Positions 18,879-41,725 of a stretch of DNA of 64,000 nt are shown one piece after another. The notes under the pieces were generated by a model that had not been told where the DNA came from, searched no databases, and saw only the letters and a program-made list of their open reading frames with translations. Source of the stretch: a bacterium (GTDB lineage: Bacteria; Hinthialibacterota; Hinthialibacteria; OLB16). The stretch lies in contig JAJVIK010000025.1 of the NCBI GenBank assembly GCA_022072055.1, forward strand, positions 7,766-71,765, in the 5' to 3' direction. The position numbers and the translations under genes were made by a program. How positions within the stretch are numbered: the stretch's first letter is position 1; each line of letters begins with the position of its first letter.

Positions 18879-19667
18879 TTATCTCAAGGCGCTGTTTTCG
18901 GCGGGAGGGCGGTAGTTTACCAGATTTGCGCTGAAACTCCCAAACTCGATGTCCACAAGAATCTTGACCGGGATGGATCGCCCATCGGCGGTCAGCCAAA
19001 TCTTGTAAGCCCGCTTTCCGACCGGTTTGCCCTGCCATAGGAGTTGAGGCGAAACCTCCAGGGTGTCCATGGTTCCAAAAAGGGTCTCCAGGGCGGGTCC
19101 GCGCGAAACCTCCCCGATGGCGGTGTAGACATCCTTTCCGTCCGTCACCGGTAATTCGAAACATTCACCAATCCGGAGGTCGCGCTGGAGAAAACAGACC
19201 CCCGCGCTGACCGGATCGTAGGTTCCCTCCGGGACCGCGAGCTCCCCGCGCAAGCCCTTGCGGTTGTAACGACGGACCAGCCCCTCGTTGGGGCTGATCT
19301 CGAGCCAGCCATCCAGCTCCCAGCGTTTCTTCTTCTCCCATTCCTCGTAGAGCCAGGGCTTGCCGCTCGGGGAAAGGTACCCCAGGAACTTGTATTGAGC
19401 GCTGTACAGGTTCTCGATCGAACCGGTGGTCCGGGCATGCGCCTCGACTTGGTGGCACTCTTGGCCCCCGCGGGTTCGAGCGCCCAAATTGGAGACCGCG
19501 AGCTTCCCCACCAAGAGATCGATCCAGTACACATCAAAGGCCATCGCCTCGCCCGCGCGCGAGGGGGGCATCGCGCTGGGAGCGGGGCAGGACAAGAGGA
19601 GGGTGACCAGCGCAAGAGCGCCGGAGACGATACGAGTTCGGATGATGGGACACCTCCCAAACGACAT
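18879..19667 (-). CDS. DUF3108-domain exported protein
   Basis: Signal-like N-terminus; FDVYWIDLLVG, YDPVSA, TDGKDVY and IWLTADGRSIPVKI...FGSF.A.L. Confidence 0.8.
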   Translation of the reverse strand: MSFGRCPIIRTRIVSGALALVTLLLSCPAPSAMPPSRAGEAMAFDVYWIDLLVGKLAVSNLGARTRGGQECHQVEAHARTTGSIENLYSAQYKFLGYLSPSGKPWLYEEWEKKKRWELDGWLEISPNEGLVRRYNRKGLRGELAVPEGTYDPVSAGVCFLQRDLRIGECFELPVTDGKDVYTAIGEVSRGPALETLFGTMDTLEVSPQLLWQGKPVGKRAYKIWLTADGRSIPVKILVDIEFGSFSANLVNYRPPAENSALR

Positions 19668-19784
19668 GCCTGTGGGAATGCGACGTCGCCCCCACGGACT
19701 CCATTCAATCTCCTTTACCGATTCCTGGCAACCGCGCCCCCGTTACCCCACATCCGCCCGACCCGTTTGTATGAGTGACAGACG

Positions 19785-19887
19785 CAGTGCTCCCAGTTCA
19801 AATCCCAGAACTGGAGCCACACCAACCCTAAGTAAGCCTCCTCTTAGGACTCGCCGGTCATCCCACCCCCTTGACCGGCTTTTTTTT
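19785..19887 (+). ncRNA. Candidate small RNA with three C-rich-loop hairpins ending in an intrinsic terminator
   Basis: Hairpins at 19789-19817 (loop AAAUCCCA), 19827-19848 (loop UAAGCCUCCU) and 19853-19879 (loop UCCCACCCCCU), then T8. No + strand gene upstream needs this terminator. The 5' end is unknown. Confidence 0.45.
19853..19887 (+). terminator. Rho-independent terminator
   Basis: GCCGGTCA/TGACCGGC 8-bp stem followed by eight T. Confidence 0.8.
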
Positions 19888-19924: not shown

Positions 19925-19964
19925 TTGACAGTCACAAGCGAACTGGTCTACAGTGATAGTAGTC
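19925..19964 (+). promoter_or_regulatory. Sigma70 promoter of the blaI-like operon with an overlapping candidate operator
   Basis: TTGACA (19925-30), 18 nt, TACAGT (19949-54). Imperfect palindrome GTCTACAGTGATAGTAGTC (CTAC-N7-GTAG) overlaps the -10. Confidence 0.55.
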
Positions 19965-20004
19965 GTGCTGCTGTCCCCATTCGTTCTGTAGGAGGTGCAA
20001 GTCT

Positions 20005-20391
20005 GTGGTCAACACTCCAAACAAAATCGCCCCTTTAAGCCGCCTCGAGGGCCTGATCATGGGGGTCCTGTGGGAGCGTGGCGATTCCACGGCGAAGGAG
20101 GTCCGGGAGTATCTCGAGGAAACCAAGCCGATGGCCCACACAACGGTTCTTACGATCCTTTCCCGCCTGCAGGAAAAGGGTTATATCAAACAGATCCCTT
20201 CCCTGGGGCGCTCGCTTCTGTTTCGCCCGATTGTTTCCAAGGAGAAGGTCGCGCGCACCAGCGTGCTTGAACTCCTGGCGCGGTTTTTTGGCGGCTCCCC
20301 CGAGAAATTGGTGGCCCATTTGGTGGAGGAGGCCGACATCACCACCAAGGAACTGGACACGATTCGGCGCAAGTTGGATGAAACAAAATAA
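20005..20391 (+). CDS. BlaI/MecI/CopY family transcriptional repressor
   Basis: LSRLEGLIMGVLWE, TTVLTILSRLQEKGYI and FFGGSPEKLVAHLVE; GGAGG RBS. Confidence 0.93.
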   Translation: MVNTPNKIAPLSRLEGLIMGVLWERGDSTAKEVREYLEETKPMAHTTVLTILSRLQEKGYIKQIPSLGRSLLFRPIVSKEKVARTSVLELLARFFGGSPEKLVAHLVEEADITTKELDTIRRKLDETK

Positions 20392-41039: not shown

Positions 41040-41630
41040 TTACTTCGGGAACTTGATTCCGCAACCGAAGGCCTGAACCTCGCGGTCATCGGCGGGTATT
41101 TCTTTCCCGGCCAGGTGGTTCTCTATGGCCGAGGCGAGCAGCTTCTTGTCGATGTGCTGCGGGTCCTGGCTATCATCCAGGGGACCGTGATAGACCACCT
41201 TGCCATCCTTGCCGATCAGATAAAACTCGGGGGTCGCGGAAGCGCCGATTTTCTTGGCGGCATCCGAACCCTTATCGATTCCGACCGCGAACTTGAGGCC
41301 CTTTTCCTTGGCGTGGGTGGTCTGCTGGTCGCCGTTTTCGTTTGCGTTGGCGTTGAGCGCGATGAAGGGAACCTTGCCCTTGTGCTGCTCCGCCAGCTCG
41401 TTGATCCGCTCCTCATAGGCCAGCGCCACCGGGCAGGTGTAAGAGGTGAAGAACACGACCACGCCTTGGACCTCCTTCTTGGCGAGGGTGTCCTTGAGGT
41501 TCACCTTCGCTCCCGAGAGCAAGTCCACGGTGTCGACCGCCGGGAACTCCTGGCCCACCACATGGGTCATCTTGGCCGCCTGGGCGCTCACCGCCACGGC
41601 CAGCACCAACACCGCCGCTAGTTTCTTCAT
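41040..41630 (-). CDS. Exported thioredoxin-fold/redoxin protein (PRX-like)
   Basis: Signal MKKLAAVLVLAVAVSAQA; FFTSYTCP, ATPEFYL...G.VVYHGPLDD and AFGCGIK. Confidence 0.88.
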   Translation of the reverse strand: MKKLAAVLVLAVAVSAQAAKMTHVVGQEFPAVDTVDLLSGAKVNLKDTLAKKEVQGVVVFFTSYTCPVALAYEERINELAEQHKGKVPFIALNANANENGDQQTTHAKEKGLKFAVGIDKGSDAAKKIGASATPEFYLIGKDGKVVYHGPLDDSQDPQHIDKKLLASAIENHLAGKEIPADDREVQAFGCGIKFPK

Positions 41631-41725
41631 GTTGTTTCTCCTTGGGGATGGTTGTTTCAATTGGGCCGGACAAATGTCCGGAAGCACTCTTGTTAAACGG
41701 ACATCCCATACCCCTGTAACGACGC

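What the first reader, a model, noticed from the sequence alone, without database searches (positions are those of the whole stretch)
19785..19887. Candidate novel sRNA: three hairpins, each with a C-rich seed loop, including a perfect anti-Shine-Dalgarno
The + strand carries three hairpins with loops AAAUCCCA, UAAGCCUCCU and UCCCACCCCCU, followed by U8. It lies between divergent genes and ends ~40 nt before the blaI promoter, so no mRNA needs this terminator. Established precedent: C-rich-loop sRNAs (staphylococcal UCCC-motif RNAs, alphaproteobacterial CCUCCUCCC 'cuckoo' RNAs) repress translation by pairing with SD sequences. I know of no such RNA described for this kind of lineage. An alternative is a cis-antisense RNA to the DUF3108 leader or to a short minus-strand ORF (36 codons from a TTG near 19823) that follows the complementary AGGAGG.
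Basis: partly seen in the sequence, partly recalled or inferred. Interest (0 to 1): 0.65.

Follow-up and report, generated by a model that had tools for sequence, protein, structure and literature searches.

The report
Family-specific small RNA with anti-Shine-Dalgarno seed
This is very probably a real, previously undescribed small regulatory RNA gene of about 110 nt, found only in one family of the uncultured phylum Hinthialibacterota; it has its own stress-type promoter, a terminator and an invariant C/U-rich stretch that can pair with ribosome-binding sites, so it is a new example of a well-known kind of regulator.

Summary
The element is single-copy, so it is not a REP element. It matches no Rfam family and has no conserved ORF on either strand.

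It is present in all 7 genomes of one Hinthialibacteria (OLB16) family, plus two divergent metagenome contigs. It is absent from the 28 other genomes of the class.

- **Structure:** hairpin 1 and the terminator stem covary. Hairpin 2 is not conserved as a structure.
- **Seed:** the 18-nt block AAGCCUCCUCUUAGGACU is invariant. It contains CCUCCU, the same hexamer as the 16S rRNA 3' tail.
- **Promoter:** every copy is preceded by GTTAC(C/T)-N15/16-CGTT, an ECF-sigma-like motif. The same motif sits upstream of orthologous genes for mostly exported proteins (cyclophilin, redoxin, fasciclin, SOUL, secretin).
- **Chaperone:** the genome encodes Hfq.

The best reading is a stress-induced trans-acting sRNA that blocks ribosome-binding sites. 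The targets and the sigma factor remain unidentified. This is a new sRNA family of a known kind, of moderate interest.

The parts
19742..19747 (+). -35-like promoter element GTTACC
   Evidence: GTTAC(C/T) is present in all 9 full-length homologs at a fixed distance from the -10 element, with an unconserved spacer. The pattern occurs twice in the window against 0.19 expected.
19764..19767 (+). -10-like promoter element CGTT, 16 nt after GTTACC
   Evidence: It is invariant in 9 of 9 homologs with a 15-16 nt spacer. CGTT with 15-17 nt spacing is the -10 of sigma-T/EcfG promoters (PMC5869019).
19777..19786 (+). Predicted unpaired 5' leader GACAGACGCA; the transcription start is inferred at about 19773-19777
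   Evidence: GACAGA(C/U)(G/A)CA is conserved in g1, g2 and L047. The start site is inferred from the promoter geometry only.
19787..19820 (+). Hairpin 1 (loop AAAUCCCA at 19800-19807)
   Evidence: It folds in all 9 homologs with divergent stem sequences. Four of the 5 scored pairs have changes on both sides. The loop is C-rich in 6 of 9 homologs.
19827..19848 (+). Hairpin 2 (CCUAAG/CUUAGG stem, loop UAAGCCUCCU); specific to genera g1 and g2
   Evidence: It is predicted in g1 and g2. The 5' arm is absent or weak in g3, L047 and L048, which form an alternative small hairpin instead.
19834..19851 (+). Invariant 18-nt block AAGCCUCCUCUUAGGACU with the anti-SD hexamer CCUCCU; the proposed seed
   Evidence: It is identical in all 9 full-length homologs and in one truncated copy. 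The GCCUCC part has a predicted unpaired probability of 0.8-0.9 in g1 and g2. The own 16S tail contains CCUCCU.
19853..19879 (+). Intrinsic terminator hairpin (8-bp GC-rich stem, loop UCCCACCCCCU at 19861-19871)
   Evidence: 100% of cells are paired across 9 sequences. There is one compensatory A-U to G-C change in 2 sequences and one U-A to U-G change. The loop always contains CCC(A/G)A.
19880..19887 (+). U8 tail (terminator T-run; a possible Hfq-binding 3' end)
   Evidence: There are 7-9 T residues in every homolog, and only on this strand. An Hfq homolog is encoded in the genome.
18879..19667 (-). Divergent neighbour: DUF3108 exported or lipoprotein-like gene (context, not part of the RNA)
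   Evidence: Pfam PF11306, E = 2e-17. The same divergent neighbour is found in G001, G005, L047 and L048, but not in G006 or genus g3.
19925..20391 (+). Downstream neighbour: blaI promoter (19925-19954) and blaI gene (20005-20391) (context)
   Evidence: Promoter scan. Pfam Penicillinase_R, E = 6e-28. blaI lies downstream of the RNA only in the window and in L048.

Best explanation
Window ~19775-19887 (+) is a stand-alone gene for a trans-acting small RNA of about 110 nt. It is restricted to one family of Candidatus Hinthialibacteria (the OLB16 lineage).

**Proposed mechanism.**
- Transcription starts a few nucleotides after a conserved bipartite promoter, GTTACC-N16-CGTT (19742-19767). This promoter has the -10 element and spacing of ECF-sigma promoters.
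- The same motif heads genes for mostly exported or membrane proteins, so the RNA would be the non-coding member of an extracytoplasmic stress regulon.
- Transcription ends at the GC-rich hairpin plus U8. Together with the Hfq encoded in the genome, that 3' end would give a typical Hfq-binding module.
- The RNA has a structural 5' hairpin, followed by an invariant 18-nt C/U-rich block, AAGCCUCCUCUUAGGACU, whose CCUCCU copies the anti-SD of the 16S rRNA.
- This block, helped by the CCCA motif in the terminator loop, would pair with GGAGG-containing ribosome-binding regions of target mRNAs. That would exclude the 30S subunit and lower translation.

**Shown here:** the anatomy, single-copy status, family-wide conservation, covariation, lack of coding potential, the conserved promoter motif and its recurrence upstream of orthologous genes.

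**Inferred:** transcription itself, the ECF nature of the promoter, Hfq dependence, SD pairing, the direction of regulation and the identity of the targets.
For: - **Fold:** the fold is far more stable than shuffled sequence.
- **Copy number:** there is one copy in the 5.86-Mb genome.
- **Distribution:** BLAST and a covariance model find it in 7 of 7 family genomes across 3 genera, and in 0 of 28 other genomes of the class. Two divergent metagenome homologs score 90-92 bits. Only the RNA aligns; the flanks do not.
- **Covariation:** 94% of cells are paired, 5 pairs change on both sides, and 0 of 500 shuffles reach the observed covariation score. Slid controls give 14-47% paired. Hairpin 1 and the terminator fold in every homolog.
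- **Seed:** the 18-nt block is invariant while the rest varies.
- **Strand:** the U-run and the promoter motif lie on the + strand in 9 of 9 copies. Five G-U pairs would be C-A mismatches on the other strand.
- **Coding:** there is no conserved ORF on either strand.
- **Promoter:** GTTAC(C/T)-N15/16-CGTT lies 52-80 nt before the core in 9 of 9 copies.
- **Regulon:** the same motif, with diverged spacers, lies upstream of orthologous genes in several genomes. These encode cyclophilin PPIase, AhpC/TSA redoxin, fasciclin, SOUL, Zn_peptidase_2, a lipoprotein, a secretin and an unnamed exported protein. One instance lies elsewhere in this window.
- **Sigma-T comparison:** sigma-T promoters are GGAAC-N15-17-CGTT (PMC5869019).
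- **Hfq and SD use:** an Hfq homolog is present. SD sequences such as AGGAGG are used, for example by blaI, and the 16S tail has CCUCCU.
Against:
- No sigma-70-family gene in this genome carries the motif within 2.5 kb upstream, so the cognate sigma factor is unknown and 'ECF' rests on resemblance. The -35 element is GTTAC, not GGAAC.
- Genome-wide, the motif is not more frequent than control patterns. Its enrichment in non-coding DNA is modest: 4 of 24 hits against 9 of 257 for controls.
- Target searches gave nothing specific. Duplex ranking was dominated by G-rich sequences. Near-perfect complements of the seed are no more frequent than controls and are not at orthologous sites.
- An 18-nt invariant block is longer than a typical seed, so something other than SD pairing may constrain it.
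- In g3, L047 and L048 part of the block is predicted to be paired.
Confidence: 0.55

Rival explanations
1. It is the same RNA gene but acts differently. The invariant 18-mer would be a binding site for a protein or for another RNA (a sponge or decoy). Alternatively, the RNA would activate or stabilise targets through G-rich leaders, as GsrN and PmaR do, rather than blocking the SD.
For: - An 18-nt invariance across three genera exceeds what SD pairing needs.
- No specific SD-type target emerged.
- C-rich-loop sRNAs that activate targets are documented (PMC5869019; PMC6234868).
- CsrA and Hfq homologs exist in the genome, and the block contains one AGGA.
Against: - CsrA sponges carry many GGA motifs; this RNA has one.
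- CCUCCU is an exact copy of the 16S anti-SD hexamer and is the most exposed part of the block in g1 and g2.
- No partner RNA with extended complementarity exists in the genome.
Confidence: 0.2
2. It is a cis-antisense or divergent-promoter regulator of the neighbouring DUF3108 gene. The + strand RNA would overlap or interfere with the DUF3108 5' UTR or promoter.
For: - DUF3108 is the divergent neighbour in the window, G001, G005, L047 and L048.
- The gap between its start codon and the RNA's -35 element is only about 35-110 nt, so the promoters must lie close together or overlap.
Against: - Both g3 genomes and G006 keep the RNA, with an identical seed, but have no adjacent DUF3108.
- No sigma-70-like minus-strand promoter is found downstream of the RNA.
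- The seed's complementarity to the DUF3108 5' region is within background in all 5 loci.
- Conservation is concentrated in the seed, not along the whole length as expected for an antisense RNA.
Confidence: 0.08
3. It is a conserved DNA or transcription element without a regulatory RNA function. Examples are an insulating terminator between divergent or convergent genes, or a decaying mobile or REP-like element.
For: - In the g2 genomes a convergent radical-SAM-like gene ends about 20-30 nt beyond the U-run, so the hairpin could also serve as a terminator there.
Against: - It is single-copy.
- On the minus strand the hairpin is not followed by a U-run.
- A terminator does not explain the invariant 18-mer, the covarying hairpin 1 or the conserved upstream promoter motif.
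Confidence: 0.07
4. The functional product is the short minus-strand ORF that follows the complementary AGGAGG (36 codons from TTG 19825). It would be, for example, a small protein or a type I toxin, with the + strand RNA as its antisense.
For: An AGGAGG lies 11 nt before a TTG on the minus strand, and a 36-codon ORF follows.
Against: - In the eight other homologs, the ORFs in that position run 1-36 codons, with unrelated sequences in nearly all of them, because hairpin 1 carries indels.
- The peptide is not hydrophobic.
- There is no promoter-like site on that strand.
Confidence: 0.02

Closest known systems
GsrN of Caulobacter crescentus (sigma-T/EcfG-dependent sRNA; PMC5869019)
   Same: - It is a stand-alone sRNA gene driven by an ECF-type promoter with -10 CGTT and a 15-17 nt spacer.
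- It has an exposed C-rich region that recognises G-rich mRNA sites.
- Its distribution is limited to one family, and the C-rich element is the most conserved part.
   Different: - The -35 element here is GTTAC, not GGAAC.
- No EcfG/NepR/PhyR locus or any sigma gene is linked to it.
- GsrN is processed and activates katG through the mRNA 5' end. Here the seed is an anti-SD, so repression is the expected outcome.
- No sequence relationship is claimed.
Sigma-E-dependent sRNAs MicA, RybB and MicL of Enterobacteria (established knowledge)
   Same: These are the non-coding arm of an extracytoplasmic-stress ECF regulon. They are short RNAs ending in a Rho-independent terminator with a U-tail and depend on Hfq. 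Their regulons also contain periplasmic folding factors.
   Different: - Their seeds lie at the 5' end and are not anti-SD or C-rich.
- Their targets are OMP and Lpp mRNAs.
- No Rfam match to these families was found, even at E <= 10.
- The lineage is from a different phylum.
C-rich-region sRNAs of Firmicutes: RsaE/RoxS, FsrA, CsfG, RNAIII UCCC loops (PMC8216469; PMC4615179)
   Same: They carry several C-rich motifs (CCCC or UCCC) in loops or unpaired regions that pair with SD regions to repress translation.
   Different: - They are controlled by other regulators (ResD/SrrA/Rex, Fur, sigma-F/G), not by an ECF-like motif.
- They act largely without Hfq.
- There is no Rfam hit.
- Here the main seed is a CU-rich linear block rather than repeated C-runs.
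Cuckoo / alpha-r14 RNAs (CcsR, RSs0680a-d; Rfam ar14 RF02344; PMC4615179)
   Same: They carry an anti-SD-like CCUCC motif in hairpin loops. They are induced by stress sigma factors (RpoHI/HII) and bound by Hfq.
   Different: - The family is defined by 2-4 hairpins that each carry CCUCCUCCC, and it is multi-copy in Alphaproteobacteria.
- This RNA has a single CCUCCU, different loops and one copy per genome.
- The ar14 model scores 14.9 bits against a gathering score of 58.8.
anti-hemB (RF02837), SorX (RF02784) and Betaproteobacteria toxic sRNA (RF02278)
   Same: These were the best sub-threshold Rfam alignments. They share a C-rich or CCUCC element followed by a GC-rich terminator and a U-run.
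   Different: The scores are 22.6, 20.1 and 17.2 bits against gathering scores of 49.5, 46.6 and 50. The alignments rest on the generic terminator and on short C-rich words.

Membership tests
Stand-alone trans-acting bacterial sRNA gene (generic class) | Its own promoter and its own Rho-independent terminator, independent of the flanking genes | tested here: met
   The promoter motif is conserved in 9 of 9 copies. The hairpin plus U7-9 is present in 9 of 9. The flanking genes differ between genera. Promoter activity itself is inferred.
Stand-alone trans-acting bacterial sRNA gene (generic class) | No conserved coding potential; structure maintained by compensatory changes | tested here: met
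   No conserved ORF on either strand. Five pairs change on both sides, and 0 of 500 shuffles reach the observed covariation score.
Stand-alone trans-acting bacterial sRNA gene (generic class) | A discrete transcript of the predicted size and strand | not testable with these tools
Hfq-dependent sRNAs | A 3' terminator hairpin followed by a U-run of at least 6, in a genome that encodes Hfq | tested here: met
   U8 lies at 19880-19887. tblastn finds an Hfq homolog at C2:211661-211876, E = 4e-12. Actual binding was not testable.
ECF-sigma-dependent sRNAs (GsrN, MicA/RybB type) | A promoter matching an ECF consensus (AAC-type -35, CGT-type -10, about 16-17 nt spacer), shared with a regulon | tested here: inconclusive
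   - The -10 CGTT and the spacing match sigma-T. The -35 is GTTAC, not GGAAC.
- The motif recurs upstream of orthologous exported-protein genes.
- No sigma gene is linked to it, and it is not over-represented genome-wide.
Cuckoo / ar14 family (RF02344) | 2-4 adjacent hairpins that each carry CCUCCUCCC in the loop; multi-copy; covariance model score at or above gathering | tested here: not met
   There is one CCUCCU only, and the loops differ. It is single-copy. It scores 14.9 bits against 58.8. The definition is taken from PMC4615179.
RsaE/RoxS, 6C, MicA, RybB and all other Rfam 15 families | A covariance-model match at the gathering score | tested here: not met
   There is no gathering-level hit at this locus. 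At E <= 10 only anti-hemB, SorX, the Betaproteobacteria toxic sRNA and ar14 appear, all far below gathering.
REP / high-copy palindromic elements | Many copies per genome | tested here: not met
   BLAST and the covariance model each find one copy in the own genome.
tRNA-derived fragment / integration att site | A tRNA 3'-end-like sequence (TTCAAATCCCAGAACTGGAGCCA in hairpin 1) that is conserved or matches a tRNA gene | tested here: not met
   ARAGORN and Rfam find no tRNA at this locus. The resemblance is absent from all homologs, whose hairpin 1 sequences differ.

The most novel reading that the evidence does not exclude
The RNA is not an ordinary target-specific repressor. It would be a stress-induced mimic of the 16S rRNA 3' tail. 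Made from an ECF-type promoter, its invariant CU-rich 18-mer would compete with ribosomes for strong Shine-Dalgarno sites across the transcriptome, or bind a conserved partner through the non-SD half, CUUAGGACU. This would dampen or re-prioritise translation of SD-led (mostly exported-protein) mRNAs during envelope stress in a phylum with no cultured member.
Probability: 0.1. Interest if true: 0.6.

Novelty: new member of a known kind. Interest (0 to 1): 0.4.

Why it matters
No regulatory RNA appears to have been described for Hinthialibacterota, a candidate phylum known only from metagenome-assembled genomes. Only 7 papers in the library mention the lineage.

This locus provides a well-supported sRNA family. 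It comes with a covariance model, a conserved promoter motif and a first sketch of the regulon that motif defines, which consists mainly of periplasmic folding and redox factors and other exported proteins. It is another independent case of a C-rich or anti-SD seed on a stress-controlled sRNA, which supports the view that this design evolves repeatedly.

In practical terms, the motif GTTACC-N15/16-CGTT and the RNA model can improve annotation of these genomes. They also give metatranscriptome studies a marker for a stress response in the field.

It does not open a new mechanism, and the organisms cannot yet be manipulated.

Tried and rejected
- **tRNA remnant.** The 3' half of hairpin 1 looks like a tRNA T-arm, acceptor stem and CCA. 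I rejected this because there is no tRNA hit and the resemblance is absent in the homologs.
- **REP element.** Rejected, because the element is single-copy.
- **Paralog in G002 (C497, 28.7 bits).** This is only a similar terminator after a gene for a protein with a PEP-CTERM-like C-terminus.
- **Target prediction.**
  - Near-complements of the 18-mer in the own genome number 35 at up to 4 mismatches, and none is convincing.
  - RNAduplex against 38,281 SD-preceded candidate starts gave a ranking dominated by G-rich sequences.
  - A 14-mer complement with up to 2 mismatches, searched in 7 genomes, is not enriched over a reversed control and is not at orthologous sites.
  - The neighbouring DUF3108 5' regions are at background level.
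- **Cognate sigma factor.** None of the 23 Sigma70_r2 genes has the motif, or relaxed forms of it, within 350 nt to 2.5 kb upstream.
- **Genome-wide enrichment of the motif.** It is weak. The case for a promoter rests on orthologous conservation instead.
- **Peptides on either strand.** Rejected.
- **Earlier notes of this scan.** Nothing on this locus.

Full report
**1. Observation**

The + strand of window 19777-19887 reads GACAGACGCAGUGCUCCCAGUUCAAAUCCCAGAACUGGAGCCACACCAACCCUAAGUAAGCCUCCUCUUAGGACUCGCCGGUCAUCCCACCCCCUUGACCGGCUUUUUUUU. RNAfold gives three hairpins followed by U8 at 19880-19887:

- Hairpin 1 at 19787-19820, loop AAAUCCCA.
- Hairpin 2 at 19827-19848, loop UAAGCCUCCU.
- A terminator hairpin at 19853-19879, loop UCCCACCCCCU.

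The MFE is -39.6 kcal/mol against -23.8 +/- 3.2 for shuffles (z = -4.9; 0 of 200 shuffles fold as well).

The left neighbour is a DUF3108 gene on the minus strand (18879-19667). The right neighbours are blaI (20005-20391) and an M56 BlaR1-like gene (Pfam). The only sigma-70-like promoter in the region, TTGACA-18-TACAGT at 19925-19954, lies 38 nt after the U-run. The own 16S rRNA ends in GGAUCACCUCCUUUCU, so loop 2 carries the true anti-SD hexamer.

**2. What it is not**

- There is no Rfam family at gathering level. At E <= 10 only anti-hemB (22.6 bits against 49.5), SorX (20.1 against 46.6), a betaproteobacterial toxic sRNA (17.2 against 50) and ar14 (14.9 against 58.8) appear. These alignments rest on the terminator and short C-rich words.
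- There is no tRNA or tmRNA. I noticed a tRNA-3'-end-like string in hairpin 1, but it is absent from all homologs.
- It is single-copy in the 5.86-Mb genome by BLAST and by covariance model, so it is not a REP element.

**3. Conservation**

Record titles place the relatives in 'Candidatus Hinthialibacteria bacterium OLB16', which is also labelled Omnitrophota. NCBI taxonomy lists the phylum Candidatus Hinthialibacterota.

BLAST finds the element in all six other genomes of the same family, across three genera, at 81-98% identity. Only the RNA aligns (query 25-163 of 221); the flanks do not. An exact-pattern scan of one genome from each of 185,579 bacterial and archaeal species finds the core only in these genomes. 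A metagenome scan adds two clearly more divergent full-length copies (L047, L048), one truncated copy and two near-identical copies of G001's.

A covariance model built from nine sequences scores 90-124 bits on all family members. It finds nothing at E <= 0.01 in the 28 other genomes of the class. The two metagenome copies score 90-92 bits. A weak second hit in G002 is only a similar terminator behind a gene whose product ends in a PEP-CTERM-like tail.

**4. Anatomy from the comparison**

- **Hairpin 1** is present in all nine homologs, with 6-11 bp stems of different sequence, for example CUUCGGAUUC/GAAUCCGAAG, AGCCUUC/GAAGGCU and CUAUGACCCG/CGGGUUGUAG. In the alignment, 4 of its 5 scored pairs change on both sides.
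- **The terminator stem** is 100% paired, with one compensatory A-U to G-C change.
- **Overall,** 94% of cells are paired and the covariation score is 0.239 against 0.141 +/- 0.023 (0 of 500 shuffles reach it). Sliding the partners by 1-3 columns gives 14-47% paired.
- **Hairpin 2 is not conserved.** Genus g3, L047 and L048 lack a good 5' arm and are predicted to form a small alternative hairpin, AAGCCU/AGG(A)CUU.
- **The invariant part is a linear block,** AAGCCUCCUCUUAGGACU (19834-19851). It is identical in all copies.
- **Loops.** The terminator loop always contains CCC(A/G)A. The hairpin 1 loop is C-rich (CCCA) in six of nine copies.

The family-wide picture is a structural hairpin, an invariant CU-rich seed and a terminator with a C-rich loop.

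**5. Strand and coding**

The U-run follows the hairpin only on the + strand, and the promoter motif (section 6) lies upstream on that strand in 9 of 9 copies. Five G-U pairs in three homologs would be C-A mismatches on the minus strand. MFE values do not discriminate between the strands.

The minus-strand ORF proposed as an alternative runs 1-36 codons in the homologs, with unrelated sequence in nearly all of them. No + strand ORF is conserved either.

**6. Promoter**

All nine full-length copies carry GTTAC(C/T)-N15/16-CGTT ending 52-80 nt before the core. The spacer is not conserved. In the window the motif lies at 19742-19767. That places the inferred start at about 19773-19777 and gives an RNA of about 110-115 nt.

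The -10 CGTT and the spacing equal those of sigma-T/EcfG promoters, GGAAC-N15-17-CGTT (PMC5869019). The -35 differs at two positions.

The motif occurs twice in the window (0.19 expected; 1 of 100 shuffles has two). The second instance, at 41696-41720 on the minus strand, lies 90 nt upstream of the ortholog of an AhpC/TSA redoxin gene.

In the own genome, 12 strict matches include sites 6-130 nt upstream of ORFs for a secretin (Pfam) and for several proteins with signal peptides or transmembrane segments.

In the six relatives, matches fall into orthologous sets in which the two boxes are kept while the spacer has diverged. They lie upstream of genes for:

- an exported cyclophilin PPIase (3 genomes);
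- an AhpC/TSA-redoxin protein (4 genomes, plus the own genome with GTTACA);
- a lipoprotein (2 genomes);
- a Zn_peptidase_2 membrane protease (2 genomes);
- fasciclin proteins (g2 and g3);
- SOUL proteins (g3);
- an unnamed exported 'PKYCVG' protein (g1 and g2).

Single instances lie before a CsoR-like repressor, a STAS protein and FolE2.

This is the signature of a real promoter class that serves mostly extracytoplasmic functions. I read it as ECF-type by resemblance. The caveats are these. No sigma-70-family gene of the genome has the motif upstream. The motif is not over-represented genome-wide. Its enrichment in non-coding DNA is modest, 4 of 24 against 9 of 257 for control patterns.

**7. 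Context**

The divergent DUF3108 neighbour is shared by the window, G001, G005, L047 and L048. It is lost in G006, cannot be assessed in G003 (contig end) and is absent in genus g3, where the RNA follows a co-oriented coiled-coil protein gene. blaI lies downstream only in the window and L048. In g2 a convergent radical-SAM-like gene ends 20-30 nt beyond the U-run. The unit that moves and is conserved is promoter, RNA and terminator together.

The seed has no above-background complementarity to the DUF3108 5' regions. No sigma-70-like minus-strand promoter lies beyond the RNA. A cis-antisense role is therefore unlikely, although it cannot be excluded without transcript maps.

**8. Mechanism**

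The genome encodes Hfq and CsrA homologs and uses SD sequences, for example AGGAGG 8 nt before the blaI GTG. The most economical reading runs as follows. A stress-responsive alternative sigma factor transcribes the RNA. Hfq binds the terminator and U-tail. The exposed CCUCCU-containing block pairs with GGAGG-containing ribosome-binding regions and blocks initiation. The CCCA loop or loops assist on G-rich sites.

This is inference from anatomy and from established precedents: RsaE/RoxS and other C-rich-region sRNAs (PMC8216469), cuckoo RNAs and RNAIII (PMC4615179), GsrN (PMC5869019), and the sigma-E sRNAs MicA and RybB.

I could not identify targets:

- Near-complements of the 18-mer are few and unconvincing.
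- Duplex ranking of 38,281 candidate starts is dominated by G-rich sequences.
- A 14-mer complement is not enriched and is not at orthologous sites across seven genomes.

The 18-nt invariance is longer than a usual seed. This leaves room for a second constraint, such as a protein or RNA partner or an alternative fold.

**9. Comparison and novelty**

It works like the C-rich or anti-SD sRNAs. In its control it most resembles GsrN and the sigma-E sRNAs. It is a member of none of them, since all covariance-model tests fail. The cuckoo definition, which requires each of 2-4 hairpin loops to carry CCUCCUCCC and multiple copies per genome, is not met.

Among the 7 papers that mention the lineage, none concerns sRNAs, judging from titles and abstracts. 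I class it as a new member (a new family) of a known kind.

**10. Limits**

No transcript evidence could therefore be obtained, and expression, ends, sigma factor and targets are all inferred.

**Verdict**

| Claim | Confidence |
|---|---|
| A conserved non-coding RNA gene is real | about 0.85 |
| The full mechanistic statement | about 0.55 |
| Interest | 0.4 |

Noticed in passing
window 41696-41720 (-), upstream of the ORF at about 41043-41630 (-): A second copy of the promoter motif in the window, GTTACA-N15-CGTT, lies 90 nt upstream of the ortholog (63% identity) of an AhpC/TSA-redoxin gene. That gene carries GTTACC-N15-CGTT in four relatives.
   Followed up: partly
L122 (G004:C76 ~186750-186868, minus) and L102 (G002:C388 ~1526-1640, plus): In genus g3 the same promoter motif precedes a second candidate sRNA of about 86 nt. 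It has a hairpin with a 14-nt C-rich loop (ACCCCCUAACACCCCA) followed by a terminator, GGCCCUCU..AGGAGGGCC-UUUCUCUUUUU. It is conserved between the two genomes and has no homolog in the own genome.
   Followed up: partly
own genome C2:153516 (-), C2:26803 (+), C10:24984 (+), C15:148637 (-), C18:75527 (+), C4:107455 (-); relatives L092-L130: GTTACC-N15/16-CGTT appears to define a regulon of mostly exported or membrane proteins: a secretin, cyclophilin PPIase, redoxin, fasciclin, SOUL, Zn_peptidase_2, lipoproteins, an unnamed 'PKYCVG' protein, and also CsoR-like, STAS and FolE2 genes. No cognate sigma gene was found next to any site.
   Followed up: partly
own genome C2:467813 (+), outside the window: A strict motif match is followed by at least 126 nt without a convincing ORF start. 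This may be another non-coding transcript or a long leader.
   Followed up: no
G005:C22:1-70 and G005:C86:21687-21741: The G005 assembly breaks inside the sRNA gene. The two contig ends overlap by 54 nt within the seed and terminator, which suggests strain variation or an assembly-graph fork at this locus.
   Followed up: no
L043 (G001) versus L041, L042 and L044 (G006, G005, G003): In genus g2 a convergent radical-SAM-like gene stops 20-30 nt beyond the sRNA's U-run. In G001 the same reading frame stays open through the antisense of the whole sRNA (the ORF ends 96 nt before the core). This is probably an ORF over-extension rather than real coding sequence.
   Followed up: no
window 18879-19667 (-): The N-terminus of the DUF3108 protein (…ALALVTLLLSC…) looks like a lipoprotein signal peptide with a lipobox. 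An internal GGGAGG lies just after the annotated ATG, so the true start codon is uncertain.
   Followed up: no
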